The notes below the pieces were generated by a model. It did not search any database, was not told the DNA's origin, and saw nothing but the letters and a program-made list of their open reading frames with translations. From Candidatus Omnitrophota bacterium (lineage in GTDB: Bacteria > Omnitrophota > Gorgyraeia > B26-G9), in NCBI GenBank assembly GCA_043826565.1, contig JBDRPX010000019.1, forward strand, positions 5,369-69,368: a stretch of DNA of 64,000 nucleotides. Direction: 5' to 3'. Each line of letters starts with the position of its first letter. Position 1 is the first letter of the stretch. Shown piece after piece: positions 4,219 through 56,504 of the stretch. Made by a program: the position numbers and the translations under genes.

Positions 4219-4266
4219 ATAGGGTATTGTTTGTAATTTGTCTATTGTATATTGGAATTTACAATT

Positions 4267-4779
4267 ATGGGTATTCCGTTAAAGCATGAAAAAGTTAGAC
4301 TGATAATCGGACTTATTGGCAAAGAGTCTTTGTTTGATGATGTAAAAAAAGTTCTTATTAAAAAATTCGGTTCAATTGATTATGAAAGCGAATGTCTGAA
4401 CTTTAATTTCACGGATTACTATAATGCGGAAATTGGTACTGATCTTAAACGAAAATTCCTGAGTTTTAAAAAATATTTCCTGCCTGAAGAACTTTCCGAC
4501 ATTAAACTTTTCACGAATAAAGTTGAGGAAAAATTTCAAGAAATGCCGGGAAAACGCCGGGTAAATATTGACCCCGGATACCTTAATTTATCCAAACTGG
4601 TTTTAGCGACCACAAAAGATCATCAGCATCGTTTATATGTGGGTAAAGGTATATTTGCCGAAGTGACCCTGCGCTACCGGGGGAAGACTTTTATGGGCTG
4701 GGATTGGACCTATCCTGATTACCAAAGCGTTGAATATATAAAAATATTTAATCATATACGCAATAATTTATTAAAGTAA
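4267..4779 (+). CDS. DUF4416-family hypothetical protein
   Basis: About 170 aa with the 'IGLIG...LFD....L...FG.ID..S....F..TDYY..E.G' pattern typical of DUF4416. The ORF-track start at 4252 is a TTG; the ATG at 4267 is more likely. Confidence 0.5.
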   Translation: MGIPLKHEKVRLIIGLIGKESLFDDVKKVLIKKFGSIDYESECLNFNFTDYYNAEIGTDLKRKFLSFKKYFLPEELSDIKLFTNKVEEKFQEMPGKRRVNIDPGYLNLSKLVLATTKDHQHRLYVGKGIFAEVTLRYRGKTFMGWDWTYPDYQSVEYIKIFNHIRNNLLK

Positions 4780-4954: not shown

Positions 4955-6151
4955 ATGGCAGGGCAAGAAAAATGGTTAACTGTTGAAAAAGAGGTAAATA
5001 AAGTGAAGGATGACACTCGAGCGTATTACTCCAAGAAAAAAAATAACTTATTGTTTGTGAAAGCTGGGCTTACTTTTCTGTTTTTACTGTTAATGGTGTT
5101 TAGTTTTGCAATTCCACTGCGTAATTTTATTACGGCATTCACGGAGAATTCAGTTATTGTTATTACGGTATACTCATTATTGGTTTGCTTGTTTTATGTT
5201 GTTTTTACCGGCGGAGTAAAATATTACGAAGAATTTTTTCTAAAAACTAAACTAGATCTTTCCGACCAATCCCTGACCGAATGGTTAAGGCAGGCTGCTA
5301 TTGACGAAACAATTTTTTTCAGCATTTTTTTTGTCAGCGCTCAAATGATATATTTTTTAATGGAAACACATTCCCGCTGGTGGTGGCTCTCGGCAGCGGT
5401 AATCTGGGTGTTTTTTAGAATTATCATGGTTAAGCTGGTGCCGGAATTTATCACGCCTTTATTTGCGCGGTTTCTTCCGATTAGTGATGAGGGATTAAAA
5501 AAAAGGCTTATTTTTTTAGCGGATTCTGTTAATATAAAAATTGATGATGTTTATATTATAAAAAGAGAAAAAAATGATCCGCAGGAACAAACGGTTTTTG
5601 TTGACCCCGGGGTTAAACGCCGGATCGTTTTAGGGGAGGGTGTATTAGGATATGCGCCGGAAGAAATTGAGGTTATGGCAGCGCATGAGTTAGCCCATCA
5701 TTATTATGGCCATGTTTGGAAGAAGTTAATGATAAAAGGGCTGGGAGTAGTTGTGATCTTTTTTCTTGTCGGAGTATTGTTCGGTCCGATAGCCAGGGCA
5801 TTAGGGTATGTACCGGTTACCAGTGTGGCAACACTACCGCTTTTGGCAGCTTTATTTTTTATTTTTAGTTTTCTGGCCATGCCTGTATTTAATATGTTTA
5901 GCCGGGATATGGATGCTGAGGCGGATAGTTTCGCGCTGCAATTAACCAAATCTCCGGATGCTTTTGTTTCGGTAATGATCAGAATAAGTCAGCAGGGATT
6001 TGTTGATCCAAATCCGAATCGCTTTATTGAGATGTTCTTATTTGCCGAGCCGTCGATAAATAAACGTATATTTATGGCTGAAGACTATGCTCAGGAATTA
6101 ACCTTTCATCAGAAGCGCAATCAAACTTTGGGTGAAGGTGGTCTATTATAG
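4955..6151 (+). CDS. M48-family integral-membrane zinc metalloprotease (HtpX/Ste24-like)
   Basis: HExxH motif 'HELAHHYYGH' plus a downstream 'EADSFAL' third ligand. Multiple TM helices. Confidence 0.75.
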   Translation: MAGQEKWLTVEKEVNKVKDDTRAYYSKKKNNLLFVKAGLTFLFLLLMVFSFAIPLRNFITAFTENSVIVITVYSLLVCLFYVVFTGGVKYYEEFFLKTKLDLSDQSLTEWLRQAAIDETIFFSIFFVSAQMIYFLMETHSRWWWLSAAVIWVFFRIIMVKLVPEFITPLFARFLPISDEGLKKRLIFLADSVNIKIDDVYIIKREKNDPQEQTVFVDPGVKRRIVLGEGVLGYAPEEIEVMAAHELAHHYYGHVWKKLMIKGLGVVVIFFLVGVLFGPIARALGYVPVTSVATLPLLAALFFIFSFLAMPVFNMFSRDMDAEADSFALQLTKSPDAFVSVMIRISQQGFVDPNPNRFIEMFLFAEPSINKRIFMAEDYAQELTFHQKRNQTLGEGGLL

Positions 6152-6271
6152 GATGTCTTTGGTGATGCAAAGACCTTGACAGAAAAATATTTAATATGAT
6201 ACACTGCATTTATAGTTAAAATCACAAAACAATGAAAATTTTAGATATAAAATATATTAATAATTTTTGGG

Positions 6272-6301
6272 ATAAAGACGCTTTATCCCTTTTTTATTAG
6301 T
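6272..6301 (+). terminator. rho-independent terminator
   Basis: Stem gggataaag/ctttatccc followed by TTTTTTATT. Confidence 0.5.
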
Positions 6302-6370
6302 AATTTTAAGCATATATTAAGTATATATTAAGAAGACAAAATTGCGTAACTGATTGTGTTGTAAAATGAT

Positions 6371-7417
6371 ATGGGGGCGGGGTTGAAAATAGCACTTATT
6401 TATAATTTAAAGCGCAAAGTTGAAGACGGGATAGCTATTGATTATTTCTCCGAATTTGACAGCAAAAATACAGTAGATTCTTTATTTAATGCTCTTTGTT
6501 CTTTAGGGCATGAAGTGTCTCTTGTGGAAGCTGATAGAAATATGTTGTCCTGGCTGGGAGCGAATAAAGTTGATATTGTTTTTAATATTGCGGAATGTTT
6601 TGGCCGGGACAGGGAAGCTCAAGTTCCGGCAATCTGTGATTTTTTAAAAATTCCTTGTGTCGGCTCCGGAGCTTTAGGTCAGGCATTATCTTTGGATAAG
6701 GCCATGACGAAAAAAATATTATCTTATGAAAACATTCCTACTCCAAAATTTCAATTGTTTAAGTCTGCTCAAGAAAGCCTTAATGCTGACTTTAAATTCC
6801 CCCTGATTGTTAAGCCTAATGCGGAAGGTTCGGCAAAAGGAATAAATGTTTGTAATCTCGTAAATAACCGGGATGATCTGTTCCGGGAAATTGCCCGGAT
6901 AATCAGCCGATACAGACAGCCTGCGCTGGTCGAGGAATTTATTAACGGCCGGGAATTGACGGTTGGGGTTATCGGAAATAATGAATTAACCGTGCTGCCT
7001 ATTTTAGAAATTGATTTTAAAGGCTGCCAAAAAAGCGGTGAGCATTTTTATTCCTGGCGGATGAAAGAGTATCAGGGAAATGTTGAATTAGGACTTAATC
7101 CGGCTTTTTATTGTCCGGCGGTATTGGATCTTGAACTTAAGGCAGAAATTGAGAATATTGCCCGGCGTGTGCATGAGGTGATTAATTGCTGCGATTTTTC
7201 GCGGGTGGATATCCGTTTGCAGGAGCACACAAATATTCCCTATGTTTTAGAAACTAATTCATTGCCGGGACTGGATCCGGTAGAAAGCAATCTGACGATG
7301 ATGGCGCAAGCGGCGGGGATAGGATATTCTTCGCTGATCAGAATGATTTTAGAAAGTGCTTTAAGCCGATATCAATCAGAAAATATATATGTGCAGGCAG
7401 GGAGGGAAAACCAGTAA
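6371..7417 (+). CDS. ATP-grasp ligase of the D-alanine--D-alanine ligase family
   Basis: Ddl-like N- and C-domains (KIALIYN...; ELTVGVIGN; LETNSLPG). The stop lies 1 nt before the likely start of the downstream kamA-like gene. Confidence 0.7.
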   Translation: MGAGLKIALIYNLKRKVEDGIAIDYFSEFDSKNTVDSLFNALCSLGHEVSLVEADRNMLSWLGANKVDIVFNIAECFGRDREAQVPAICDFLKIPCVGSGALGQALSLDKAMTKKILSYENIPTPKFQLFKSAQESLNADFKFPLIVKPNAEGSAKGINVCNLVNNRDDLFREIARIISRYRQPALVEEFINGRELTVGVIGNNELTVLPILEIDFKGCQKSGEHFYSWRMKEYQGNVELGLNPAFYCPAVLDLELKAEIENIARRVHEVINCCDFSRVDIRLQEHTNIPYVLETNSLPGLDPVESNLTMMAQAAGIGYSSLIRMILESALSRYQSENIYVQAGRENQ

Positions 7418-7418
7418 A

Positions 7419-8588
7419 ATGAGAACTGATCATAGCTGGCGAAAGATGGATCTGTGGAATAATGTAGCGGAAAAAGATTGGCAAAACTGGCGCTGGCAGA
7501 TCCAAAACAGAATTACCACTAAAGAGCAGCTTAAAAAAGTTATTTGCCTTACCCCGGAAGAGGAATCGGGAGTTGATGTTTTAAGCGGCCGGCTTTCTAT
7601 GGCGATCACGCCTTATTTTTCTCAGTTAATGGATCCGGAAAAAAATTATTGCGCGATAAGAAGGCAGGCGGTTCCTTTAATTGATGAGACTTTTGCCAGT
7701 TCGAATGAAAGTATTGATCCTTTGGCTGAAGACAGATATTCTCCCATACCCGGGCTTGTCCATCGTTATCCGGACAGAGTATTGCTTTTGGTCACGGACC
7801 AGTGCGCGGCATACTGCCGTCATTGTACGCGCCGGCGTTTAGTAGGGACAGAAGAAGCGGTAATAAAAGGGAAAAATTTAATCAGAGCTTATGATTATAT
7901 TCGTTCGCATAAAAATATCCGGGATGTTTTGATCTCCGGAGGGGATCCCTTATTACTTGATGATGAACGCTTAGAAGAAATTCTTATCGCGGTTCGTTCA
8001 ATTCCCCATGTTGAATTTTTGCGGATCGGGACCCGTGTTCCGGTTACTTTGCCGCAGCGCATTACTCCGGAACTTGTTGCGGTATTAAAAAAATATACTC
8101 CGTGGATATCCATACATTTTAATCATCCTAAAGAGATAACCAAAAGCTGTCAAAAAGCCTGCGGCATGCTTGCTGATGCCGGACTTCCTTTAGGCAGTCA
8201 GACGGTATTATTAAAAGGGATAAATGATCGTTTGTATATTGTAAAAAAACTTATGCATGAACTATTGAAAATCAGAGTAAGGCCTTACTATATTTATCAT
8301 TGTGATCTGGTTAAAGGTATTAGTCATTTTCGTACTCCGCTTGCTGTGGGAATTTCAATTATGGAAAAATTGAGAGGATATACTTCCGGGTATGCTGTTC
8401 CCACTTATGTATTGGATTCCCCGGGCGGCGGCGGTAAAATACCCATAGTGCCTAACTGTATAATTCGCCAGGAAAAAGGAATTTTTGTTTTACGCAACTA
8501 TGAGGGGAAAATATTTACTTACGATGATACTGCCAGCTGTAGTGAGCGAATTAATGTAAAGCCGGATATTATTTCAGAAATGGATTAA
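7419..8588 (+). CDS. lysine 2,3-aminomutase family radical-SAM protein (KamA/EpmB-like)
   Basis: 'CAAYCRHCTRRR' CxxxCxxC motif and overall KamA-family layout. RBS 'gggaggg' about 10 nt upstream of the ATG at 7419; the alternative track start is 7389. Confidence 0.8.
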   Translation: MRTDHSWRKMDLWNNVAEKDWQNWRWQIQNRITTKEQLKKVICLTPEEESGVDVLSGRLSMAITPYFSQLMDPEKNYCAIRRQAVPLIDETFASSNESIDPLAEDRYSPIPGLVHRYPDRVLLLVTDQCAAYCRHCTRRRLVGTEEAVIKGKNLIRAYDYIRSHKNIRDVLISGGDPLLLDDERLEEILIAVRSIPHVEFLRIGTRVPVTLPQRITPELVAVLKKYTPWISIHFNHPKEITKSCQKACGMLADAGLPLGSQTVLLKGINDRLYIVKKLMHELLKIRVRPYYIYHCDLVKGISHFRTPLAVGISIMEKLRGYTSGYAVPTYVLDSPGGGGKIPIVPNCIIRQEKGIFVLRNYEGKIFTYDDTASCSERINVKPDIISEMD

Positions 8589-8665
8589 TCCTGAGCCTGC
8601 CGCGGCTTTACTTAAAAAAGAAGGAATTCGGGTTTTAAATGTTGAGGAATTTCTCGGGATAAAAA

Positions 8666-9901
8666 ATGACTAAGATGAATATCACGGATTTCTTAATTAA
8701 AAAAGCAGAGCTTAATGATCAGGATATAAATGATCCGCAGATACGCGCGCGTTACGGAAGCTTGGAGGGCTGGGTTAGCGTGCTGGCTAATCTGGTGCTT
8801 TTTATTACTAAACTTAGCGTGGGTCTTTTTAGCGGAAGTATCAGTATTATTGCCGATGCTATACATACTCTCTCTGATGTTGCTACATCAGCAGTGGTTA
8901 TTTGGGGTTTTAAAGTAGCCCGAAAACCGGCAGACAAAGAACATCCTTTCGGGCACGGCCGCATGGAAGATATAACTACTTTGATCATTGCTGTTCTTTT
9001 ATGTGTTGTCGGAGTGGAAATATTATTACAATGTGTGGAAAGGATTTCCCAGCCTCCGGAAGTTAAAGCTAATATTTTTATATTCATTGTTCTGGCGGGG
9101 TCGGCAGTGGTAAAAGAGTGGATGGCCCGGTTTTCGTTTTCACTCGGAGGAAAAATAGATTCCTCGGCGCTTAATGCCGACGGATGGCATCACCGAAGTG
9201 ATGCTATATCAACTATTTTAGTAATTATTGCGGTTATTTGTTCGATGTTTAAGCTGTTTATTTTTGATGCGCTGCTTGGCGGTGTAGTTGCCGCTTATAT
9301 AATATATACCGGGATAAGATTGGTTAAAGAGGCAAGTACTCATCTTTTGGGTAAAGGTATTGATGAGAGTCTGCGGGATAAGATCAGGACTATTGCGGTG
9401 TCTGTAGACGGAGTTGAAGGAGTCCATGATATTGTGGCCCATGATTATGGTACGCATAAAGCGATTTCTTTGCATGTGGAAGTAGCGCGTTCTTTAAATT
9501 CTGTAGCCGCGCATCGCATCGCGGCTACTGTGGAAACCCGGCTGGCAAAAAATATAGTATCGAGTCCGATCGTGCATATTGACTTAAAGCGTAAAAAAGG
9601 AAAAAATGTTACCTCGGAAATGATGACTTTAAAGTCGGTTATTAAGAAATATCCGAAAATAATTCATTATCACGGAGTGCAGATGTCCAGCACCGAAAGC
9701 GGGGATTTTCTAAACTTACATATTGTTATTCCCCGGGATATGAATATTGAACAATCCCATGAACTGGAGCATCAGGTAAGAGAGTCTTTACAGCCGTATT
9801 TTAAAGATTTTACTATTAACATGCATGTAGAGCCTTGTAATGCAAAATGCGCTTTGTGCTCTCAGTCGTGTAAACAGTCAGTCAGAGAGCAGAGGGCATA
9901 A
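8666..9901 (+). CDS. cation diffusion facilitator (CDF) family metal efflux transporter with a Cys-rich C-terminal extension
   Basis: Six TM helices. 'HTLSDV...HPFGHGRME' CDF signature. The C-terminus carries 'CNAKCALCSQSCKQS'. Confidence 0.8.
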   Translation: MTKMNITDFLIKKAELNDQDINDPQIRARYGSLEGWVSVLANLVLFITKLSVGLFSGSISIIADAIHTLSDVATSAVVIWGFKVARKPADKEHPFGHGRMEDITTLIIAVLLCVVGVEILLQCVERISQPPEVKANIFIFIVLAGSAVVKEWMARFSFSLGGKIDSSALNADGWHHRSDAISTILVIIAVICSMFKLFIFDALLGGVVAAYIIYTGIRLVKEASTHLLGKGIDESLRDKIRTIAVSVDGVEGVHDIVAHDYGTHKAISLHVEVARSLNSVAAHRIAATVETRLAKNIVSSPIVHIDLKRKKGKNVTSEMMTLKSVIKKYPKIIHYHGVQMSSTESGDFLNLHIVIPRDMNIEQSHELEHQVRESLQPYFKDFTINMHVEPCNAKCALCSQSCKQSVREQRA

Positions 9902-9903
9902 TT

Positions 9904-10824
9904 GTGAAAAAAAAGTTTAAATCAGGGTATGTGGCTTTTCTTGGTAAGCCTAATGTCGGCAAATCAACGCTTTTGAACCATTTTTTAAAAGAAAAGCTTT
10001 GCATAATATCTCCCAAGCCTCAGACGACCCGGGACAGTATTCAGGGAATACTCTCAGAACCCGGATATCAGATCATTTTTGTCGATACTCCGGGTATACA
10101 CCAGCCTAAAACCGCGCTGGGAAAGCATATGAATGATTTGGCCCAGGACGCGGGTATTGACGCGGATGTGATGATCTTAATTGTCGATGCCTCAACCGGC
10201 ATAACCTATGAGGACCGGCAGATATTTAACTGGTTAAAGTCAAAGTATAAAGCCATTGAAAATAAAAGAGTTATGATTTTGATTAATAAGATTGACCTTA
10301 TTGAAAAGAACGAAGTTTTGCCGATAATTGCCAAATGCCAGAGAGAATTAGCCCAGATCAAGATAAGTGATTATATCCCGGTTTCCGCAATAGACGGAGA
10401 TAATCTTGACCTGATATTCGGGAAAATGCTGGAATATTTGCCTTTTGGCCCGGTTTATTACCCCGAAGACCAGCTTACCGATAAAAATGAGCGGTATGTG
10501 GTCGCGGAATTGATCCGGGAGCAGGTATTGGGCTGCTGCCGGGAAGAAGTTCCTCATTCTGTGGCTGTTCTGGTGCAGGCCATGCAGGATAATCCCGGGC
10601 GTAAGACCTTGATCCAGGCCACAGTGTATGTCGAGAAAAAAACCCAGAAAGGTATTATAATCGGAGAAAAAGGCCAAATGCTTAAAACCATCGGCAGTTT
10701 GGCCCGGGAGCAGATCGAGGGATTTTTGGGCCGAAAAGTATATCTTGAGCTTTGGGTTAGGGTGCAGGATAATTGGCGTAAGGACGAGGCTTTCTTAAAA
10801 AAGCTGGGTTACGGAGATAAATAG
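9904..10824 (+). CDS. era: GTPase Era
   Basis: G1 'GKPNVGKSTLLN', G3 'DTPG', G4 'NKID', and a C-terminal KH domain. Confidence 0.9.
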   Translation: MKKKFKSGYVAFLGKPNVGKSTLLNHFLKEKLCIISPKPQTTRDSIQGILSEPGYQIIFVDTPGIHQPKTALGKHMNDLAQDAGIDADVMILIVDASTGITYEDRQIFNWLKSKYKAIENKRVMILINKIDLIEKNEVLPIIAKCQRELAQIKISDYIPVSAIDGDNLDLIFGKMLEYLPFGPVYYPEDQLTDKNERYVVAELIREQVLGCCREEVPHSVAVLVQAMQDNPGRKTLIQATVYVEKKTQKGIIIGEKGQMLKTIGSLAREQIEGFLGRKVYLELWVRVQDNWRKDEAFLKKLGYGDK

Positions 10825-11503: not shown

Positions 11504-12811
11504 ATGAGACGTTTGTTAACAATAGTATGTGCCTTAAGCATAGTTGCTTTAATGGCAATGCCTGCGCTTGCTGAAGTGCAGAACATTAAGATAAGTGGTG
11601 GAATTGATATTAGAGCTATTGCCCGTGATAATATGGCTCCGTCAGATTCTGGTGCGGGAAGAGCATTAGGAACTTTCGCGGAAACAACAACACAGGACCT
11701 TTATAACAGCGTAGTTACTTTAAATGTTGACGCGGACCTTACAGACAATGTAGCTGCTCACATTGGATTATTCAATGAAAGAGATTGGGGAGTAACTGGT
11801 GCTGGTATTTGGTCAAATTCTGCATACATCACTTTAAAAGAAATGATGTATTCTCCGTTGACCGTAGTTGCCGGTAGAACTTCTGTTGTTATTGCTGACG
11901 GATTAGTAGTTGGTGATGGAGTTACCAATGAAAATACTGGTGGTTTATTGGCCGCAGCAGAGCTTTCTCCGCAGAATGAATTTGACACAATTCACGCGAT
12001 TTTGGATTATGATCCATTAACATTGATCATCGGAACTTTAAAGCTTGCTGAAGGTTTAGCCGGTACATTTGGTGACGATATTGATGGATACTTAGTTGAT
12101 GGTATTTACAAATTCGAAGATTACAATGCTGTATTAGATACTTATTTAGTTGCTGCTCATTATGCTTCTCCGGGAGTTGGTTTAACCGGGCCTGATGGCA
12201 CCAGTAATAAAACTTGTGATGTTTATGCATTAGCTACCAGATTGACCATGGAACCAACAGAAGGCTTAATGCTTGATGCCGGTATTGCTATTCAGAGTGG
12301 TGACTATATGACCTCAAGAACTGTTGGTGTTGCCGACAGAGGTCTTGATGCCATGGCGTTCAATGTTGGCTTAGACTATGCTGTTGACGCGGAATATTCT
12401 CCAAAAGTTGGTGTGAAATACATCTATCGTTCTGGAGATAGTGGAGATGGCGTTGGCGATTTCGAAGGATGGTTACCGTTGGCCGAAGGCCAGGTGCTGA
12501 GTGTTATTGTTGATCCAAATACCAATACCAATTCTTTTAATTTGAATGCCAGCATTGTTCCGGCAGACAGATTGACTCTTGGCGTTGATGTATGGTTCTT
12601 CAACTTAGCAAAAGCATTAGCTACTCAGACAGCAGCAATGTCAACAAAGAAAGATGTTGGTACAGAAATTGACCTTGCTCTGAAGTATGCTTATACAGAA
12701 GATGTTAGCATGGGTTTAACTTTAGCTTATTTCATGCCTGGCGATTATTACAGAAACGGGTTTGATAAGACAGCAACAGAAATTATTGGTTCTGTAGGCG
12801 TAAAGTTCTAA
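11504..12811 (+). CDS. secreted outer-membrane protein (putative major porin / β-barrel OMP)
   Basis: Signal peptide 'MRRLLTIVCALSIVALMAMPALA'. No Cys; Gly/Asp/Thr-rich with alternating β-strand pattern. C-terminal '...GVKF' aromatic terminus. Strong RBS 'aggaggt'. Strong terminator immediately downstream. Confidence 0.6.
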   Translation: MRRLLTIVCALSIVALMAMPALAEVQNIKISGGIDIRAIARDNMAPSDSGAGRALGTFAETTTQDLYNSVVTLNVDADLTDNVAAHIGLFNERDWGVTGAGIWSNSAYITLKEMMYSPLTVVAGRTSVVIADGLVVGDGVTNENTGGLLAAAELSPQNEFDTIHAILDYDPLTLIIGTLKLAEGLAGTFGDDIDGYLVDGIYKFEDYNAVLDTYLVAAHYASPGVGLTGPDGTSNKTCDVYALATRLTMEPTEGLMLDAGIAIQSGDYMTSRTVGVADRGLDAMAFNVGLDYAVDAEYSPKVGVKYIYRSGDSGDGVGDFEGWLPLAEGQVLSVIVDPNTNTNSFNLNASIVPADRLTLGVDVWFFNLAKALATQTAAMSTKKDVGTEIDLALKYAYTEDVSMGLTLAYFMPGDYYRNGFDKTATEIIGSVGVKF

Positions 12812-13141: not shown

Positions 13142-13657
13142 ATGCCGGAAGAACACAGTGTTAAAGAAGAAGTTCAGATGGTAATATTCAGGATCCAGGA
13201 TGAGGAGTTCGGGGTAGAGATAAGCCAGGTAAAAGAAATTCTAAAACTCGTTCCCATAACGCGAATGCCTAAAGCTCCGGTATTTATTGAAGGAGTAATA
13301 AATTTAAGAGGGCAGATAATCACAGTTGTTGATCTGGCAAAAAGATTTGATCTGGATTCTCTGGGGAGAACGGAAACAACCCGGATAATGGTTGTGGAAG
13401 TCGGAGAGAATACCGTAGGGATGATTGTTGATTCGGTTTCGGAAGTTATCAGGCTTTCAGCGAATAATATTGAAAAAACTCCCGCTCTTATTCAAAGCGG
13501 AATTCATGAACGGTATTTAAGAGGGGTGGGGAAAATTGCCGACCGTTTGTTGATATTACTGGATTTAAATGAAGTTCTTAGTACCGAGGAGCTGCATAAT
13601 ATCAATAAGCATATTGAGTCGGCAAGCGAAATAACAGAAAAAGACGAGATAAGTTAA
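13142..13657 (+). CDS. cheW: chemotaxis coupling protein CheW
   Basis: CheW-like domain: 'FRIQDEEFGVEISQVKEI...INLRGQIITVVDL'. Confidence 0.85.
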   Translation: MPEEHSVKEEVQMVIFRIQDEEFGVEISQVKEILKLVPITRMPKAPVFIEGVINLRGQIITVVDLAKRFDLDSLGRTETTRIMVVEVGENTVGMIVDSVSEVIRLSANNIEKTPALIQSGIHERYLRGVGKIADRLLILLDLNEVLSTEELHNINKHIESASEITEKDEIS

Positions 13658-13680
13658 GCGGAAAGGAAGGAGCGTAGATT

Positions 13681-14055
13681 ATGGCAGTAAAAGTGCTGGT
13701 GGTTGACGATGCGGTTTTTATGCGCAAGATGATCGGAGATATTCTCAAAAAAGAGGGGTATGAGATCATCGGTGAGGCAGAAAACGGGCAGGAGGCAGTT
13801 GATAAATATGGAGAGCTTGCTCCTGATCTGGTGACCATGGATATCGTTATGCCTAAGGTAAACGACATGGATGGTATCGGAGCAGTGAAACAGATAATGG
13901 AAAAAGACGGCGAGGCCAAGATTCTTATGGTAAGTGCTATGGGTCAGCACGCGTTAGTTGTCGAAGCTATTCAGGCTGGGGCAAAAGATTTTGTTACTAA
14001 ACCTTTTCAGCCATCTCGTGTACTGGAAGCGGCAAAGAGAGTTTTAGAAAGCTGA
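13681..14055 (+). CDS. cheY: chemotaxis response regulator CheY
   Basis: Single REC domain, 124 aa, with the DD...D...T...K pattern. Confidence 0.85.
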   Translation: MAVKVLVVDDAVFMRKMIGDILKKEGYEIIGEAENGQEAVDKYGELAPDLVTMDIVMPKVNDMDGIGAVKQIMEKDGEAKILMVSAMGQHALVVEAIQAGAKDFVTKPFQPSRVLEAAKRVLES

Positions 14056-14113
14056 GTAATAGATTAAGCAGTGTTTTGTTTTAAATTGATTTTTAAAACA
14101 GAGGCTTTGAAAT

Positions 14114-14734
14114 TTGCTAAAAAAAATAATTGTTTTAACTGCCCAGCAGGAGGATGTATTAAAAGAGCTGGGGAATATATGTGCGGGTAATGCTGCCACC
14201 GCACTTTCTCAATTACTTAATAAAAAAATTATAGTCAATATTCCACATGTGCATCTGGTGCGTATTAAAGAGGTGCCCGCAATTGTGGGCGGTCCCCAAA
14301 AAATAATGGCTGGGGTTGTTTCTCAGGTGTTTGGAGATGCGCAGGGAATTATACTTTTATTATTTCCGCAACAGAGTGCTCATGTTTTATCAGAAATGTT
14401 CCATGGCCGGCAGGATGAGAGAGGGATCTTTACAGAAACTGATCAGTGGGCAATAAGAGAGACGGGCAGTTTATTATCTGCGGTGTATCTCAATACGCTT
14501 ACCAAATTTACAAGATTAAATCTTATCCCATCTACCCCGGGAATCATAATTGATATGGCCGGTGCGCTTATAGATTATCTGCTTATTGAACTTTCAGCTG
14601 TTACAGAATATGCTTTATTAATTGATTCTGAATTTAATGATGCCGGAAGGCTTCTTCAGGGGCATTTTTTATTATTACCTAATGCCGGAAGCCTGGAAGC
14701 CATCTTGGATACAATAAAGGAATATAATGGATAA
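14114..14734 (+). CDS. cheC: CheC-family CheY-P phosphatase
   Basis: 'ELGNICAGNAATALSQLL' CheC signature. The track start is TTG. Confidence 0.75.
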   Translation: MLKKIIVLTAQQEDVLKELGNICAGNAATALSQLLNKKIIVNIPHVHLVRIKEVPAIVGGPQKIMAGVVSQVFGDAQGIILLLFPQQSAHVLSEMFHGRQDERGIFTETDQWAIRETGSLLSAVYLNTLTKFTRLNLIPSTPGIIIDMAGALIDYLLIELSAVTEYALLIDSEFNDAGRLLQGHFLLLPNAGSLEAILDTIKEYNG

Positions 14735-15215
14735 GCCAGAAATTCATATTGGAATCGCGGATATGAAGGTTGCCAAAGCTCCGGCGGTATTAACTTCTTT
14801 AGGTATTGGTTCATGTGTAGGAATTATATTATTTGATAAGCATTCCAAAATCGGCGGGATGGCTCATATCATGCTTCCCGATCAGGATATTGTTAGAAAT
14901 AAAACAAATCGTGCTAAATTCGCGAATACGGCAATCCCGGATATGGTCGAGGATATGGTTAAAAAAGGAGCGGACCGGAAATTTATTAAAGCTAAAATCA
15001 TGGGCGGGGCACATATGTTTAAGTTTTCCCGGGAAACCGCGATCTCCAATATTGGCAAACGGAATGTGGAAGAAGTAAAGAAAGTTTTAGGTGAAATGAA
15101 AATAAAAATTATTGCTGAAGATACCGGCAAGGATTACGGCCGTTCATTATTTTTTGATTTAGATACCGGAGAAGTTAAAATAAGAACTACAACTCATGGA
15201 GTAATGATATTATGA
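14727..15215 (+). CDS. cheD: chemoreceptor glutamine deamidase CheD
   Basis: 'GIADMKVAKAPAVLTSLGIGSCVGIILFD' CheD motif with catalytic Cys. Confidence 0.85.
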   Translation: MDKPEIHIGIADMKVAKAPAVLTSLGIGSCVGIILFDKHSKIGGMAHIMLPDQDIVRNKTNRAKFANTAIPDMVEDMVKKGADRKFIKAKIMGGAHMFKFSRETAISNIGKRNVEEVKKVLGEMKIKIIAEDTGKDYGRSLFFDLDTGEVKIRTTTHGVMIL

Positions 15216-16264
15216 TAAGAGCGCTGGTTGTTGATGATTCCGCATTAATGCGTAAGCGTATAAGTGATATTCTTAATTCCGATAAGGATATTGAAGTTAT
15301 TGATACCGCAAAAACCGGGGCTAGTGCTATGGAAAAAGTAGCGGCTTTGCGTCCGGATGTTGTGACTATGGATCTGGTAATGCCGGATGTGGATGGATTG
15401 ACAGCACTTAATTATATTATGCATGAAGTGCCGACTCCGGTGGTAGTTATCAGTGCCAACGCCTCTCCGAATAGCCGAAATGCTATAAGAGCTTTGAAAT
15501 TAGGCGCGGTTGATGTTATTGCTAAACCGGGAGGGGAGATATCGATTAATATCAGCATAATTGATCATCAAATTATCAATAAGGTAAAGGCGGCGAGTAA
15601 GGTTGATGTAAAGCATATCCAGTCAGTATTGCGCAAAATCGGCGGCAAAGGCCCTAATTTAGCCCGCAAACCGAAAGTAGGGGTTACCCAGGTTATTGCG
15701 ATCGGGGCTTCTACCGGAGGACCTAAAGCGATCAAGGAAATTTTACCGTATTTTGCCCCGGATATCCATGCGGCGTTTTTAATTGTCCAGCATATGCCGG
15801 CGGTTTTTACTAAAGCCATGGCGGAGCGTATTAATTCTGATTCTAAAATTGCCATAAAAGAAGCTGAGGATGGAGATGTTCTCTGTGATGGATGCGGATA
15901 TGTCGCGCCCGGCGGTTATCATATGGTAGTTGTAAAACACGGCGATGATATGTTAATTAGGCTTACAAAAGATCCGCCGGTGAACAGTGTTCGTCCGTCA
16001 ATTACGGTGATGATGAATTCCGCGGCTAAGGAATTTGGTGCAAAATGTACTGGTGTTTTATTAACCGGTATGGGCCAGGATGGTGTTGAGGGTATGAGGA
16101 GTATCCATGATGCCGGAGGAAAAACATTAGCGGAAGATGAATCTACTTGTGTGGTTTTCGGTATGCCGAAAGTAGCAATTAAAGAAGGTGTAGTTGATAA
16201 AGTTGTTCCATTACACCATATGGGCATTGAATTAATGAAGATTATCCGGGATAGGGGACTGTAA
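15212..16264 (+). CDS. cheB: protein-glutamate methylesterase CheB (REC + methylesterase domains)
   Basis: N-terminal receiver domain. C-terminal 'IAIGASTGGPKAI' methylesterase motif. Confidence 0.85.
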   Translation: MIRALVVDDSALMRKRISDILNSDKDIEVIDTAKTGASAMEKVAALRPDVVTMDLVMPDVDGLTALNYIMHEVPTPVVVISANASPNSRNAIRALKLGAVDVIAKPGGEISINISIIDHQIINKVKAASKVDVKHIQSVLRKIGGKGPNLARKPKVGVTQVIAIGASTGGPKAIKEILPYFAPDIHAAFLIVQHMPAVFTKAMAERINSDSKIAIKEAEDGDVLCDGCGYVAPGGYHMVVVKHGDDMLIRLTKDPPVNSVRPSITVMMNSAAKEFGAKCTGVLLTGMGQDGVEGMRSIHDAGGKTLAEDESTCVVFGMPKVAIKEGVVDKVVPLHHMGIELMKIIRDRGL

Positions 16265-16266
16265 AT

Positions 16267-18285
16267 ATGAGTATGGAGCAGTATCGAACTTTATTTGTGG
16301 CTGAATCAGAAGAGCACTTGCAGTTTATCAGCAATGCGATACTGCGTCTGGAAAAAGATCCGGAAGATACGGAGACTTTAAATACGATCTTTCGCAGCGC
16401 GCATACATTAAAGGGTATGGCGGCAACAATGGGGTTTAAGAAGTTTACGGAATTGACCCATAAGATGGAAGATATGCTGGAAACATTCCGGACAGAAAAA
16501 ATCCCGGTTACTTCGGAAATGATCGATCGTTTGTTTAAATGTATGGATATGTTGGAGATGCTTTTAGAAGAGGTAAGATCCCGGAAAGATCTGAATCTGG
16601 ACGTAGATGTGCTTATTGCAGAACTGGAAACAATCTCTCCGGCATCAGTATCCGAAGAAAGCGCTGTAAAAAAAATAAAGAAGGCAAAACCAATAGCTCT
16701 GAGTAAGCTTGAAAAGCACAATTTATCCAATGTGATAAGTGCTCGGGGATTATCTGTCTATCAGATTGATGTTTGTCTGTCGGAAGATTGCCAATTAAAA
16801 TCAGTCCGTGTATATATGATATTTAATAAATTAGAAGAGTTTGGCGAGGTGGTTAAGTCGGTGCCGTCTCCGGAAGATTTAGAGCAGAACAGAGTTGACC
16901 GCATTGTTTCGTTATTGTTTTTAACAAAGACATCGAAAAAGAAAATTGAAGATATTTTAAGTATCATCTTAGAAATAGACAGCATTGAGTTCAAGGAAAT
17001 AACTGATATTGACAGCTTGCCGGAAGGGCAGACTATTGAATCGGCAAGGAATATTAATGAGGGAAAGACAAAAGAAGGAAAAGAACAATCCGGGGAAGCT
17101 GCCCGCCAGAGTACGGAAATACGAAAAATAAAGAATATCAGGATTAGTACTAAACGCCTTGATAAATTAATGAATCTGGTCGGAGAATTAGTTATTGCTA
17201 AAATCAGATTGATGCAGGTCGCTCAGATACAGAAAATTCAGTCTCTGCATGAAGTTTTAACGATTATTGACCGGCTTACCGGGGAATTGCAGGATGAGGT
17301 AATGCAGGCCCGATTAGTGCCGATTTCGCATGTATTTGACCGTTTTCCGCGGATGGTCAGGGACTTGGCTCGTAAAGAGAATAAACAGGTGTTTTTGGAG
17401 CTTTCCGGTGGAGAAATCGAATTAGATCGTACTATCCTCGATGAGATCGCTGATCCTTTAGTCCATCTTTTGCGTAATAGTGTGGATCATGGAATAGAAT
17501 TGCCTAAAGAAAGAAAAAACTATGGGAAAAATCCCAGCGGAACTATAAAATTGCGGGCGGAAAGGGAAAGAACCCATATTTTAATTGAGGTTTCTGATGA
17601 CGGAAAAGGAATAAATCCGGACATGTTGAGGCAGAAGGCATTAGAAAAAGGCTTTTTAACCGAGGAAGAGATAAATAAAAGCAGTGATAAAGATATATTG
17701 AAAGTAATAACTCTTCCCGGATTTAGTTCGGCAAATGTTGTTACCGATACGTCGGGACGCGGTGTCGGGATGGATGTCGTAAAAATGAAGATAGAATCAT
17801 TAGGCGGTTTTCTTTCTTTTGATTCTCAGCTTGGTGCCGGCAGTAAGTTTAGTTTAAGACTGCCGGTTTCGGTAGCGATTATCCGCGCTATGCTTGTCGA
17901 GGTCAGCGGGGAAATCTACGCGGCGCCGATCGCGAATATAGCCGAAACTGTAAAAGTAGCGCAAAGTCAGATAAAGCATATTGAAAAATTTGAAGTTATT
18001 AATTTAAGAGATGAGGTTCTTCCGCTGGTAAGGTTAAGCCAGGCTTTGGAAAGCCGCTTGGAGATAGAGCTTAAACCTAAAAAAAGTAAAGAAATTTCAA
18101 TTTTGGTTGTCGAAGGAAACGGGAAGAAAGCCGGATTGATTGTGGATAGATTTTTGGGACAGCAGGAAGTGGTTATTAAGTCTATAGGCAGTTTATTAAA
18201 AGGGATTAAAGGATTTTCCGGCGCAACGATATTAGGAGACGGACGCGTAGCGCTTATTTTAGATGTGGTAAGTATGGTCGGATGA
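16267..18285 (+). CDS. cheA: chemotaxis histidine kinase CheA
   Basis: Hpt 'HTLKGMAATMGF', dimerisation domain, HATPase_c, and C-terminal CheW-like domain. Confidence 0.9.
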   Translation: MSMEQYRTLFVAESEEHLQFISNAILRLEKDPEDTETLNTIFRSAHTLKGMAATMGFKKFTELTHKMEDMLETFRTEKIPVTSEMIDRLFKCMDMLEMLLEEVRSRKDLNLDVDVLIAELETISPASVSEESAVKKIKKAKPIALSKLEKHNLSNVISARGLSVYQIDVCLSEDCQLKSVRVYMIFNKLEEFGEVVKSVPSPEDLEQNRVDRIVSLLFLTKTSKKKIEDILSIILEIDSIEFKEITDIDSLPEGQTIESARNINEGKTKEGKEQSGEAARQSTEIRKIKNIRISTKRLDKLMNLVGELVIAKIRLMQVAQIQKIQSLHEVLTIIDRLTGELQDEVMQARLVPISHVFDRFPRMVRDLARKENKQVFLELSGGEIELDRTILDEIADPLVHLLRNSVDHGIELPKERKNYGKNPSGTIKLRAERERTHILIEVSDDGKGINPDMLRQKALEKGFLTEEEINKSSDKDILKVITLPGFSSANVVTDTSGRGVGMDVVKMKIESLGGFLSFDSQLGAGSKFSLRLPVSVAIIRAMLVEVSGEIYAAPIANIAETVKVAQSQIKHIEKFEVINLRDEVLPLVRLSQALESRLEIELKPKKSKEISILVVEGNGKKAGLIVDRFLGQQEVVIKSIGSLLKGIKGFSGATILGDGRVALILDVVSMVG

Positions 18286-18319
18286 TATCGCAAGCAATAC
18301 TGTCCTAAGGAGGAAAAAT

Positions 18320-18916
18320 ATGGCAGACTTGAGTGATGCTCAACTCGATGCACTGAAAGAAATGGGGAATATTGGTTCCGGTAACGCGGCTACCGCACTT
18401 TCCCAATTAATATCTTCACAAATAGATATTAGTGTCCCTTCTGTAAACTTTTTGCCTTTAGAAAATGTGGCAGATGTTCTGGGAGGCCCGGAAAAAATTG
18501 TTTATGTTATTTATCTTGAAGTTATGAGCCGAATGAACGGAACAATGGTTACAATTATTACTCCGGAGAGTGCGGAATTTTTGGTCAGTAAACTTATTAC
18601 AAATGAGAAGCTGGATAAGGATTCCGAGTTATATCAATCGGCATTAAAAGAAGTAGGATCGATTCTCTGTGGTTCTTATTTAAGTGCTTTAAGTCAGGTT
18701 GTCGGTGAAACTTTTATTGCTTCAGTTCCGGCAATGGCCTGCGATATGATGGGCGCGCTTCTCGACTTTGTTCTCACTGAGATCGGCCAGGTTGCCGAGG
18801 AAGCTCTCTTGATAGAGACAGAGTTATTTGTTTCGGATACTAAGGTGGAATGCTCGCAATTGTTTCTTCCTAAGCCCGGCTCTCTGGAAACATTGCTCGC
18901 TGCAGTTGGCATGTAA
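18320..18916 (+). CDS. second CheC/CheX-family phosphatase
   Basis: 'LKEMGNIGSGNAATALSQLI' CheC-type motif. 198 aa. Confidence 0.7.
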   Translation: MADLSDAQLDALKEMGNIGSGNAATALSQLISSQIDISVPSVNFLPLENVADVLGGPEKIVYVIYLEVMSRMNGTMVTIITPESAEFLVSKLITNEKLDKDSELYQSALKEVGSILCGSYLSALSQVVGETFIASVPAMACDMMGALLDFVLTEIGQVAEEALLIETELFVSDTKVECSQLFLPKPGSLETLLAAVGM

Positions 18917-39859: not shown

Positions 39860-39943
39860 AGATCTTCCCGCGACTTGCATCAGCCCATCTATTATGGTAT
39901 ACTTTATTACTTTTTGTAACTGAAAGGAAAGTAGTGAAGCCGA

Positions 39944-54762: not shown

Positions 54763-55941
54763 ATGGCCACAGTTATTCTTAAACCTGATCAAGGACAACG
54801 GATTTACTCCGGATATCCCCGGGTATTTAATTATCAGATTAGCCAGATAAAAGGTGATTTTAAGCCGGGAGATATTGTTTCGGTGACAAATTCCCGCAGT
54901 GAATTTGTCGGCCGGGGATATATAAATCCCGGGTCTAATATTCCGGTACGTATTTTAACTCATGATGATGAGCCGATAAATAAAGAATTCCTGACCCGCC
55001 GGATAAAACAGGCGATTGATTTCCGCAAGAATATTATTTCTGAAGATACAAATGCTTACCGCCTGATTTTTTCCGAATCTGATTTTCTTTCCGGGCTTAT
55101 TGTGGATGTCTACGGAGACTGCTTAGTCATCCAGATGCTCACTTTGGGTATGGAGAATCAAAAGCAGGATATTATTGATATCTTAAAAGAGTTTATCAAG
55201 CCTAAAGGTATTTATTTGCGTAATGATACGCCGCTGCGTTTACAGGAGAATTTATCTTTAGAAAAAAAAGTTGTTTGCGGAAGATTTGGGACCAAGCTGG
55301 AAATAAGAGAGAACGGCGTGCCTTTTGTCGTGGATATCGAAAACGGACAAAGGACAGGATTTTATATTGACCGCCGCGATAACCGTCTTTTACTAAAAGA
55401 GATAACTAAAGGGAAAACAGTACTTGATTGTTTTTGCTATAGCGGAGCATTTTCTGTATATGCCAGCCGCTACGGCGCGTCTAAGGTTGTGGGTATTGAT
55501 ATTTCCGCGCATGCCTTGAAATTCGCTAAAACAAATATGAAGCTTAACCGAATTAACTCCCGGCGTTATGAATTTAAAGAAGATGATGTTTTTAATGCTT
55601 TAAGGGATCTTTGTGACCGCCGGGCTAAATTCGATGTGGTAATGCTTGACCCGCCCAGTTTAGTAAGCTCTAAAAATAAAATTGATAGCGGATTGCGCGG
55701 ATACCGGGAACTGAATTTAAGGGCTTTAACTCTTTTAAATAGAGGAGGCATTTTGGTAACATCAAGCTGTTCTTACCCTGTGCATGACCAGCTTTTTAAA
55801 CAGGTTTTGCAGGAAGTCGCGGATAAAGAAGGCCGGATGCTGCGGGTGATAAAATCCGGAAGCCAGTCTCCGGATCATCCCAAGTTCTTGAATATAAAGG
55901 AAAATTCTTACCTTAAATGCTTGGTCTTAGAGGTGTTGTAA
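54763..55941 (+). CDS. rlmI: 23S rRNA m5C1962 methyltransferase RlmI-like (PUA + class I SAM-MTase)
   Basis: 'RTGFYIDRRDNR', 'FDVVMLDPP' and 'RGGILVTSSCS' align with E. coli RlmI 'KTGYYLDQRDSR', 'FDVIVMDPP' and 'EGGILLTFSCS'. Confidence 0.8.
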   Translation: MATVILKPDQGQRIYSGYPRVFNYQISQIKGDFKPGDIVSVTNSRSEFVGRGYINPGSNIPVRILTHDDEPINKEFLTRRIKQAIDFRKNIISEDTNAYRLIFSESDFLSGLIVDVYGDCLVIQMLTLGMENQKQDIIDILKEFIKPKGIYLRNDTPLRLQENLSLEKKVVCGRFGTKLEIRENGVPFVVDIENGQRTGFYIDRRDNRLLLKEITKGKTVLDCFCYSGAFSVYASRYGASKVVGIDISAHALKFAKTNMKLNRINSRRYEFKEDDVFNALRDLCDRRAKFDVVMLDPPSLVSSKNKIDSGLRGYRELNLRALTLLNRGGILVTSSCSYPVHDQLFKQVLQEVADKEGRMLRVIKSGSQSPDHPKFLNIKENSYLKCLVLEVL

Positions 55942-55946
55942 TTTGC

Positions 55947-56474: not shown

Positions 56475-56504
56475 TGTTTTACTCTTGGTTTAGCAGCAAC
56501 TAGG

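What the first reader, a model, noticed from the sequence alone, without database searches (positions are those of the whole stretch)
6371..8588. Translationally coupled ATP-grasp (Ddl-like) ligase and lysine-2,3-aminomutase pair
A KamA-family radical-SAM aminomutase (CAAYCRHCTRRR) starts 1 nt after the stop of a D-Ala-D-Ala-ligase-like ATP-grasp enzyme. Known KamA partners are EpmA (an aaRS paralogue, for EF-P β-lysylation) or AblB (an acetyltransferase, for Nε-acetyl-β-lysine). An ATP-grasp partner instead suggests ATP-dependent ligation of β-lysine to an amino acid, peptide or cell-wall precursor. The product could be a β-lysine-containing dipeptide osmolyte or a modified peptidoglycan stem. 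A CDF metal transporter follows immediately downstream.
Basis: inference. Interest (0 to 1): 0.6.

Follow-up and report, generated by a model that had tools for sequence, protein, structure and literature searches.

The report
Beta-lysine ligase operon, product unknown
A lysine 2,3-aminomutase and a D-Ala-D-Ala-ligase-like ATP-grasp enzyme form a real operon that is the minimal form of an apparently undescribed gene module found in many bacteria and archaea, which most likely joins beta-lysine into a small amide compound whose structure is unknown.

Summary
An ATP-grasp gene (6371/6383-7417) ends 1 nt before a KamA-family gene (7419-8588) in a Candidatus Omnitrophota contig.

The KamA protein keeps every lysine-binding and cofactor residue of Clostridium lysine 2,3-aminomutase. 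It scores as AblA/KamA-like, not EpmB-like. The ATP-grasp has the Ddl fold and catalytic residues, but it falls below every Ddl family cut-off and its specificity residues are replaced.

The pairing is not chance:
- All 76 Omnitrophota species loci with enough contig carry ligase-ligase-KamA.
- More than 100 protein clusters are KamA-ligase fusion proteins, in DPANN archaea, Thermoplasmatota, Methanocellales and Spirochaetales.
- Metagenomes mostly carry a four-part module: KamA, ligase A, ligase B and a GNAT acetyltransferase.

The window holds the minimal core, KamA plus one clade-A ligase. It has lost the second ligase that its closest relative keeps. The CDF transporter is not conserved.

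No target protein, transporter or murein gene travels with the module, and it occurs in archaea that lack murein and EF-P. A cytoplasmic small-molecule product, a beta-lysine-containing amide or peptide, is therefore favoured. Its structure and role are unknown. I found no description in the searchable literature and no matching NCBIfam model.

The parts
6371..7417 (+). Ddl-like ATP-grasp ligase of clade A ('grasp2'). The likely true start is the TTG at 6383.
   Evidence: Pfam Dala_Dala_lig_C, E 2e-32. It falls below all NCBIfam Ddl cut-offs. The AF2 model has pLDDT 89, and its best PDB fold matches are Ddl at 22-27% identity. The ATP and catalytic residues K110, K148, E188, E195, R278, D280, E294 and N296 are conserved, while the specificity residues are replaced. 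It falls in clade A in the NJ tree.
7400..7406 (+). SD-like GGGAGGG inside the 3' end of the ligase gene, 12 nt before the KamA ATG
   Evidence: Read directly from the sequence. Function is inferred.
7419..8588 (+). Lysine 2,3-aminomutase (KamA/AblA-like radical SAM, PLP enzyme), short form without the Zn site
   Evidence: NCBIfam AblA 494 bits; the KamA subfamily model is passed. E 4e-140 to PDB 2A5H, with D293, D330 and K337 aligned.
7803..7838 (+). Codes for CAAYCRHCTRRR: the CxxxCxxC [4Fe-4S]/SAM cluster motif plus the Arg equivalent to R134, which binds the substrate carboxylate
6152..6370 (+). AT-rich intergenic region between the M48 peptidase gene and the operon. It has a terminator-like hairpin at 6269-6289 and occupies the place where the closest relative carries a small ORF and the second ligase gene.
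   Evidence: Scan. Comparison with L085. No ligase remnant by tblastn. No Rfam hit.

Best explanation
This is a two-gene operon for a beta-lysine-derived small molecule.

Step 1. The KamA protein converts free L-lysine to beta-lysine (3,6-diaminohexanoate) by radical-SAM/PLP chemistry. This is strongly inferred from conserved residues.

Step 2. The Ddl-like ATP-grasp ligase forms one amide bond through an acyl-phosphate intermediate. Beta-lysine serves as one of its two substrates. My preferred version is that the beta-lysine carboxylate is activated and joined to an amino-acid amine, giving a beta-lysyl dipeptide or amide that stays in the cytoplasm. Which partner is used and which atom is joined are both unknown. 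This step is inferred.

The pair is the minimal core of a much wider module. Most Omnitrophota carry two clade-A ligases plus KamA. Most other lineages carry KamA, ligase A, ligase B and a GNAT acetyltransferase, which should yield a longer, N-acetyl-capped product.

The physiological role is most plausibly that of a compatible-solute-like or cationic cytoplasmic metabolite, by analogy with N-epsilon-acetyl-beta-lysine. That role is the weakest link in the argument.
For: 1. Lysine signature. R134, D293, D330, K337 and the three cluster cysteines of LAM are invariant in all 74+8 KamAs and 61+21 KamAs that were examined. Because all three lysine contacts are kept (carboxylate, alpha-amine via PLP, epsilon-amine), free lysine is the likely substrate, so the mutase acts before the ligase.
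2. Ligase competence. All ATP, Mg and catalytic residues of DdlB are invariant in both Omnitrophota paralogues, and the fold is Ddl-like.
3. Coupling by synteny. In the 80 best genome loci the order is ligase-ligase-KamA in all 76 where the contig reaches far enough. The flanking genes differ between clades.
4. Coupling by fusion. The fusions seen are KamA-ligase (P0265, P0333, P0372, plus more than 100 clusters at 90% identity), ligase-ligase (P0241 and P0317 confirmed by Pfam) and ligase-GNAT (P0384).
5. Module census. Counts are KGGN 16, GGNK 15, KGG 8, KG 9, GGK 4 and GK 3. There are two deep ligase clades, and clade A is the one adjacent to or fused with KamA. The window's ligase is clade A.
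6. Self-contained module. No neighbour family recurs in more than 4 of 63 loci. Pfam scans of the 142 nearest neighbours show no dedicated transporter, target protein or mur gene.
7. Archaeal occurrence. The L096 contig also carries GatD and a Rad51/RadA-type gene. NCBI labels other members Woesearchaeota, Nanoarchaeota, Thermoplasmatota and Methanocellales.
Against: - No product is known and nothing here identifies the second substrate.
- KamA scores just below the AblA equivalog cut-off (494 against 525), so another basic amino acid is not formally excluded.
- The osmolyte role has no direct support. No Na+ or c-di-AMP riboswitch, nor any other Rfam hit, was found in the window or in 39 module loci.
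- Ion-transporter neighbours are anecdotal and not enriched. They are the CDF here, MgtE/Nramp in L003, Na+/H+ exchangers in L094 and MscL/CorA in L096.
- Omnitrophota place the operon among translation and housekeeping genes (EF-G-like, YchF, Era). This is compatible with other roles.
- MAG taxonomic labels can be wrong. L090, a close relative of 'Thermoplasmatota' proteins, sits beside lpx genes.
Confidence: 0.55

Rival explanations
1. Protein modification. Beta-lysine is attached by the ATP-grasp to a protein, either a non-homologous replacement of EpmA acting on EF-P or a RimK-like tailing of a ribosomal protein.
For: KamA-family enzymes feed EF-P beta-lysylation in gamma-proteobacteria (established knowledge; PMC2821294). 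ATP-grasp enzymes such as RimK modify proteins. In many Omnitrophota loci the operon lies next to EF-G-like and YchF genes (37 and 49 of about 82 loci), and here it lies two genes upstream of era, with the CDF gene between.
Against: - KamA is far from EpmB (234 against a cut-off of 369).
- No efp was found in the window or in any held locus.
- No candidate target gene co-varies with the module.
- The module is frequent in archaea, which have no EF-P.
- The ligase has the Ddl architecture for small substrates, not the RimK type.
- The translation-gene neighbours are confined to one closely related clade and vanish elsewhere.
Confidence: 0.1
2. Cell-envelope modification. The ligase adds beta-lysine to a peptidoglycan precursor, as the ATP-grasp D-aspartate ligase adds a branch in Enterococcus, or makes a Ddl-type dipeptide that is built into the stem.
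For: The closest homologues and folds are all Ddl/Van ligases. In L090 the module follows lpxD-fabZ-lpxA-lpxI-lpxB.
Against: - No mur/ddl-cluster synteny appears in about 170 loci.
- The Ddl specificity residues H63, E68, Y216 and L282 are replaced.
- The module occurs in archaea without murein.
- A GNAT partner is frequent, and there is no flippase or transferase partner.
Confidence: 0.08
3. Oligomer or polymer synthesis. The ligase condenses beta-lysine with itself, either repeatedly or once, to give oligo-beta-lysine. This would be a polycation serving as a polyamine substitute or nitrogen store.
For: - Either single clade-A ligase can be retained alone with KamA: grasp2-type here, grasp1-type in L086 and L092.
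- Omnitrophota carry two clade-A copies and no clade B or GNAT.
- No second-substrate pathway gene is linked.
- The N-terminal domain has invariant acidic residues D24, E28 and D30.
Against: There is no primer or export function and no direct evidence. Ddl-type enzymes are not known to act processively. This is really a sub-case of the best explanation.
Confidence: 0.15
4. Chance adjacency. The aminomutase serves lysine fermentation or N-acetyl-beta-lysine synthesis, and the ATP-grasp is an unrelated Ddl paralogue.
For: None beyond the generic annotations.
Against: Synteny holds in all assessable loci. KamA-ligase fusion proteins exist in more than 100 clusters. No kamDE/kdd/kce genes and no AblB-family GNAT are nearby.
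Confidence: 0.02

Closest known systems
[quoted passage not shown]
   Same: The first enzyme is the same, a LAM with the lysine signature, and AblA is the best NCBIfam hit. The operon is compact and self-contained with no transporter. The wider module usually includes a GNAT as well.
   Different: The partner here is an ATP-grasp amide ligase, not an acetyltransferase. The module's GNATs are not of the AblB family (21.7 bits or less against a cut-off of 205). One or two ATP-dependent ligations are added, so the product must be larger than acetyl-beta-lysine.
EpmB/EpmA (YjeK/PoxA) beta-lysylation of EF-P
   Same: A KamA-family aminomutase is paired with an ATP-dependent enzyme that makes a beta-lysyl amide.
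   Different: The mutase is not in the EpmB clade (234 bits against a cut-off of 369). The ligase is an ATP-grasp (acyl-phosphate chemistry), not an aaRS paralogue (adenylate chemistry). No efp is nearby. The module is present in archaea.
D-alanine--D-alanine ligase (Ddl) and Van ligases
   Same: Same three-domain ATP-grasp fold and the same ATP, Mg and catalytic residues. These are the best sequence and structure matches.
   Different: Identity is only 22-27%. It falls below all curated Ddl cut-offs. The specificity residues are replaced. There is no mur synteny. It is fused or linked to KamA.
Two-ligase small-peptide pathways that use ATP-grasp enzymes: glutathione (GshB, GshAB C-domain), NAGGN synthase Ngg (GNAT plus ATP-grasp) and carnosine synthase (a beta-amino acid donor)
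   Same: The logic is sequential ATP-grasp ligations, with or without an N-acetyl cap, that make a cytoplasmic di- or tripeptide. Carnosine synthase shows that an ATP-grasp enzyme can activate a beta-amino acid. This comparison rests on established knowledge.
   Different: These are different ATP-grasp subfamilies with different substrates. None uses beta-lysine or is linked to a radical SAM mutase.
pboF/pboG in the Pseudomonas syringae Pbo cluster (PMC8473136)
   Same: This is the only literature case I found of a LAM-like radical SAM gene next to an ATP-grasp ligase gene.
   Different: The ligase there is of the L-amino-acid-ligase (BL00235) type. It is embedded in a 16-gene secondary-metabolite island with NRPS-like, KAS III, dioxygenase and MFS genes. 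Its product is also unknown.

Membership tests
KamA family radical SAM/PLP aminomutases (TIGR00238) | Passes the curated family score | tested here: met
   349 bits against a cut-off of 199
KamA family radical SAM/PLP aminomutases (TIGR00238) | CxxxCxxC cluster motif and the PLP-binding lysine (K337 of 2A5H) | tested here: met
   C129, C133, C136 and K340 in the window protein. They are invariant in all relatives.
Lysine 2,3-aminomutase proper (AblA/KamA equivalog, TIGR03820) | Passes the equivalog cut-off | tested here: not met
   494 bits against a cut-off of 525. It is the best-scoring equivalog but falls just below.
Lysine 2,3-aminomutase proper (AblA/KamA equivalog, TIGR03820) | Lysine-binding residues R134, D293 and D330. 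Glutamate 2,3-aminomutase has Lys and Asn at the last two positions (recalled from Ruzicka and Frey 2007). | tested here: met
   R138, D296 and D333 in the window protein. They are invariant in 61 module KamAs.
Lysine 2,3-aminomutase proper (AblA/KamA equivalog, TIGR03820) | Inter-subunit Zn site (C268 plus the C-terminal CxCxxC of the Clostridium enzyme) | tested here: not met
   C268 is replaced by R, and the C-terminal Cys cluster is absent. This feature is not required in all LAMs.
Lysine 2,3-aminomutase proper (AblA/KamA equivalog, TIGR03820) | Catalytic conversion of L-lysine to beta-lysine | not testable with these tools
   Needs an enzyme assay
EpmB (EF-P beta-lysylation mutase, TIGR03821) | Passes the equivalog cut-off, with epmA or efp linked | tested here: not met
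   234 bits against a cut-off of 369. No efp in the window or in any held locus.
D-alanine--D-alanine ligase (Ddl) | Passes the curated Ddl family scores | tested here: not met
   Best scores are PRK01372 at 175 against 243 and TIGR01205 at 145 against 246. NCBI PGAP names it only 'ATP-grasp domain-containing protein'.
D-alanine--D-alanine ligase (Ddl) | Substrate-site residues of DdlB (H63, E68, Y216, S281/L282; the E15-S150-Y216 triad) | tested here: not met
   H63 becomes E75, E68 becomes R81, Y216 becomes E233 and L282 becomes N307. S150 and S281 are kept. The alignment around E15 is uncertain.
D-alanine--D-alanine ligase (Ddl) | Genomic association with mur/ftsQ cell-wall genes | tested here: not met
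   None in the window or in about 170 related loci
ATP-grasp superfamily (carboxylate-amine ligases that act through an acyl-phosphate) | ATP-grasp fold with conserved ATP/Mg ligands (K97, K144, E180, E187, D257, E270, N272 and R255 of DdlB) | tested here: met
   All are invariant. AF2 pLDDT is 89. Foldseek gives E about 1e-27 to Ddl structures.
AblA/AblB N-epsilon-acetyl-beta-lysine system | An AblB-family GNAT (TIGR03827) adjacent to the mutase | tested here: not met
   No GNAT lies near the pair in the window. GNATs of the wider module score 21.7 bits or less against a cut-off of 205.

The most novel reading that the evidence does not exclude
KamA plus the clade-A Ddl-like ligase, with optional ligase B and GNAT, may be a widespread and so far undescribed biosynthetic module. 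It is found in Omnitrophota, Myxococcota, Spirochaetota, DPANN archaea, Thermoplasmatota and Methanocellales. It would make a new class of beta-lysine-containing di- or tripeptide metabolites, N-acetylated in most lineages. Such a product could be a new compatible solute, a polyamine-like cation or a low-molecular-weight cofactor. The window would carry its minimal two-enzyme form.
Probability: 0.5. Interest if true: 0.7.

Novelty: new variant of a known kind. Interest (0 to 1): 0.6.

Why it matters
Only a few fates of beta-lysine are known: N-epsilon-acetyl-beta-lysine as an osmolyte, EF-P beta-lysylation, lysine fermentation and NRPS antibiotics. This would be a further, ATP-grasp-dependent fate.

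The module is present in at least several hundred species-level genomes and across both prokaryotic domains. These include ultra-small, uncultured lineages (Omnitrophota, DPANN) whose physiology is largely inferred from annotation. At present the genes are annotated only as 'KamA family radical SAM protein' and 'ATP-grasp domain-containing protein' or 'D-alanine-D-alanine ligase'.

The two-gene form in this window is about 2.2 kb with no other required partner evident. That makes it the simplest construct for finding the product by heterologous expression or in vitro reconstitution. It would also stop these ligases from being counted as peptidoglycan Ddl in metabolic reconstructions.

Tried and rejected
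- Riboswitch or leader upstream of the operon. Rfam gave nothing at gathering level on the whole window, nothing at E<=1 on 6100-6420, and nothing on 39 module loci.
- Conserved accessory genes. Clustering neighbours within 6 kb in 63 module loci gave no family in more than 4 loci. A Pfam census of the 142 nearest neighbours showed only scattered MFS (5), CYTH (4), M24 peptidase (3) and HDAC-type deacetylase (2). I therefore dropped the idea that ion transporters or MscL are enriched, although they do occur next to the module in L094, L096, L003 and the window.
- Neighbours conserved within Omnitrophota (EF-G-like, YchF, PurH, FolC, PAC2, M20, HAD). I judged these to be phylogenetic inertia, because they vanish in divergent lineages.
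- efp linkage. None found.
- Hopanoid link suggested by the HpnA-like SDR and the B12-rSAM gene in L091. The paper found by keyword was irrelevant, and the association is seen in one locus only.
- GNAT as AblB. Rejected.
- Literature. Six keyword searches and several full-text look-ups found no description of a KamA plus Ddl-like ATP-grasp system. Iyer et al. 2009 on amidoligases (PMC3268129) is not held and could not be checked.
Full report
**Observation**

The window is a Candidatus Omnitrophota MAG contig. P0001 and P0121 are 100% identical NCBI proteins on a 75.6-kb contig.

An ORF at 6371-7417 (+) ends with TAA at 7415-7417. After one base, an ATG at 7419 opens a 389-aa ORF that runs to 8588. 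NCBI's 344-aa model implies that the first gene starts at the TTG at 6383. A GGGAGGG at 7400-7406 could serve as the ribosome-binding site for the second gene.

Pfam assigns Dala_Dala_lig_C/ATP-grasp to the first protein and Radical_SAM plus LAM_C to the second. The next gene (8666-9901) is a CDF transporter.

**The aminomutase**

NCBIfam ranks the equivalog models as follows:

| Model | Score (bits) | Cut-off (bits) |
|---|---|---|
| AblA | 494 | 525 |
| Glutamate 2,3-aminomutase | 457 | 650 |
| Arginine 2,3-aminomutase | 404 | 600 |
| EpmB | 234 | 369 |

Only the general KamA subfamily model is passed.

The alignment to Clostridium subterminale LAM (2A5H, E 4e-140) shows the following residues conserved:
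- the three cluster cysteines;
- R134, which binds the substrate carboxylate;
- D293 and D330, which bind the epsilon-ammonium. From memory of Ruzicka and Frey 2007, these are Lys and Asn in glutamate 2,3-aminomutase;
- the PLP lysine K337.

C268 and the C-terminal Zn cysteines are missing.

The same signature is invariant in 74 Omnitrophota homologues, in 8 divergent or fused homologues and in 61 module-linked metagenomic homologues. Because all contacts to free lysine are kept, I infer that the mutase acts on free L-lysine, before any ligation.

**The ligase**

The ligase scores below every curated Ddl/Van model. The best is PRK01372 at 175 bits against a cut-off of 243. Its best PDB sequence hits are Ddl enzymes at E about 1e-28.

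An AlphaFold2 model has pLDDT 89 and pTM 0.88. It matches Ddl structures at 22-27% identity.

Mapping onto E. coli DdlB gives two results (the DdlB sequence was recalled from memory, and it aligns at 27% over 288 residues):
- The ATP, Mg and catalytic residues K97, K144, E180, E187, R255, D257, E270 and N272 are all invariant.
- Substrate-site residues are replaced: H63 to Glu, E68 to Arg, Y216 to Glu and L282 to Asn.

It is therefore a competent ATP-grasp amide ligase of the Ddl architecture, but not a D-Ala-D-Ala ligase.

**Is the pairing functional?**

A scan of one genome per species found at least 574 genomes with a relative of the ligase. The best 80 are all Omnitrophota, some mislabelled as Planctomycetes.

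Mapping by tblastn shows the order ligase('grasp1')-ligase('grasp2')-KamA on one strand in all 76 loci whose contig extends far enough. A second ligase lies upstream in all 78 loci that can be assessed. The flanking genes differ between clades, and the CDF gene never recurs.

An exhaustive profile search of 1.84 billion representative proteins showed that many of the top hits are 650-790-aa proteins. Pfam resolves those examined into three types:
- tandem ligase-ligase fusions;
- KamA-ligase fusions (P0265, P0333, P0372);
- a ligase-GNAT fusion (P0384).

Searching with one KamA-ligase fusion returned more than 100 clusters of such fusions at 90% identity. NCBI labels them Thermoplasmatota, Methanocellales, Woesearchaeota, Nanoarchaeota and Spirochaetales. 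One fusion-bearing contig (L096) is clearly archaeal, because it also carries GatD and a Rad51/RadA-type gene.

Gene fusion in several permutations plus universal synteny is strong evidence for one pathway.

**Architecture of the wider module**

A metagenome scan and domain mapping gave the following counts among 61 non-redundant loci (K = KamA, G = ligase, N = GNAT):

| Order | Loci |
|---|---|
| K-G-G-N | 16 |
| G-G-N-K | 15 |
| K-G (mostly cut by contig ends) | 9 |
| K-G-G | 8 |
| G-G-K | 4 |
| G-K | 3 |

Other examples:
- Myxococcota: KamA, then a fused G-G, then GNAT (L091).
- [K-G][G-N] in L090 and L094.
- [K-G][G] in a Woesearchaeote (L096).

A rough neighbour-joining tree splits the ligases into two deep clades. 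Clade A is always the first ligase and is the one adjacent to or fused with KamA. Clade B is the second ligase and is the one adjacent to or fused with the GNAT.

Both Omnitrophota paralogues fall in clade A. Omnitrophota lack clade B and the GNAT.

**The window's version**

The window's ligase is the grasp2 orthologue (57% identity). No second ligase exists anywhere in the 64 kb.

The closest relative (L085, 65% identity) has the order M48 peptidase, small ORF, grasp1, grasp2, KamA. The window has M48 peptidase (4955-6151), then 219 nt, then grasp2 and KamA. This lineage has therefore lost grasp1.

Other Omnitrophota lineages (L086, L092) kept only grasp1 together with KamA. The window thus carries the minimal core, which is KamA plus one clade-A ligase.

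**What the module does not contain**

Clustering all neighbours within 6 kb of the module in 63 loci found no family present in more than four loci. A Pfam census of the 142 nearest neighbours gave only scattered hits: MFS 5, CYTH 4, M24 peptidase 3 and HDAC-type deacetylase 2.

There is no mur gene and no efp. There is no precursor peptide and no dedicated exporter. No riboswitch was found.

The GNATs are not of the AblB family. NCBIfam has no specific model for any of the ligases.

**Mechanism**

Strongly inferred: L-lysine is converted to beta-lysine by the mutase.

Inferred: the ligase uses ATP to form an acyl-phosphate and then one amide bond, with beta-lysine as one partner.

In lineages with ligase B and a GNAT, a second ligation and an N-acetylation follow. 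This is reminiscent of two-ligase peptide pathways such as glutathione, and of the GNAT plus ATP-grasp osmolyte enzyme Ngg. Carnosine synthase shows that ATP-grasp enzymes can activate beta-amino acids. These three comparisons rest on established knowledge, not on tests done here.

A cytoplasmic small molecule is the most economical reading, for three reasons:
- the module is self-contained;
- it carries no exporter;
- it occurs in archaea that lack both murein and EF-P.

A compatible-solute-like role is suggested only by analogy with N-epsilon-acetyl-beta-lysine (PMC3543383; PMC9337991) and by anecdotal neighbours. Those neighbours are MscL, Na+/H+ and Na+/Ca2+ exchangers and CorA in L096, two Na+/H+ exchangers in L094, MgtE/Nramp in L003 and the CDF here. 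They are not statistically enriched.

**Rivals**

- Protein modification, for example of EF-P, about 0.1.
- Peptidoglycan or envelope modification, about 0.08.
- Oligo-beta-lysine, a sub-case of the main hypothesis, about 0.15.
- Chance adjacency is refuted.

**Novelty**

Keyword searches of 8 million full texts found no paper describing a KamA plus Ddl-like ATP-grasp system.

The only precedent for the adjacency is a table entry for pboF/pboG in a Pseudomonas syringae secondary-metabolite island (PMC8473136). The ligase there is of a different type and the product is unknown.

The key comparative-genomics paper on amidoligases (Iyer et al. 2009) could not be read, so prior mention cannot be excluded.

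I rate this a new variant of a known kind, namely beta-lysine-utilising pathways. It is of moderate to high interest because it is widespread, spans both domains and is directly testable with a 2.2-kb construct.

Noticed in passing
window 6152-6370 compared with L085 1727-3425: The window lineage lacks the small Lys-rich ORF (125 aa) and the grasp1 ligase gene. Its closest relative carries both between the M48 peptidase gene and grasp2. Only a 219-nt AT-rich spacer with a terminator-like hairpin (6269-6289) remains.
   Followed up: partly
L132, L144, L146, L176 (e.g. L146 10725-12470): In four G-G-N-K loci a protein of about 580 aa lies near the module (downstream in three). It has a GNAT-like N-terminal region and an HDAC/acetylpolyamine-amidohydrolase domain (the Hist_deacetyl family matched two of the scanned neighbours, best E 7e-74). 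It could be a deacetylase for turnover of the acetylated product. NCBIfam has no model for it.
   Followed up: partly
L095 7417-8412: A more distant member of the Ddl-like ligase family (275 bits) sits in a phage-like context with terminase, ParB, PAPS reductase, glycosyltransferases and an SDR epimerase. No KamA is present.
   Followed up: no
window 13142-18916: Chemotaxis cluster: CheW, a small ORF, CheC-like, CheD, CheB, CheA and CheC/CheX-like. A 715-aa FtsA/PilM/MreB-like actin-fold protein follows at 19154-21301.
   Followed up: no
window 28442-33169 and 42264-46103: Two unusually large multidomain sugar-metabolism proteins. The first is 1575 aa with NAD-epimerase/dehydratase, UDPGP nucleotidyltransferase and HAD domains. 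The second is 1279 aa with only weak PGM_PMM_II and PGI matches. A 741-aa ORF at 39805-42030 has no Pfam hit.
   Followed up: no
window about 55900-56500: GC skew changes from positive to negative, and gene orientation switches from + to - at about 56 kb. Cumulative skew peaks there. This fits a replication terminus or a large inversion boundary.
   Followed up: no
window 4252-4779 and 11504-12811: A DUF4416 protein lies upstream of the M48 (CAAX-type) peptidase. An Alginate_exp-like outer-membrane beta-barrel lies downstream of era.
   Followed up: no
L003 254-1507 (- strand): A Vint/Hint (intein-like) domain protein lies about 6.5 kb upstream of the ligase-ligase-KamA triad (8001-10376) in one Omnitrophota genome.
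   Followed up: no
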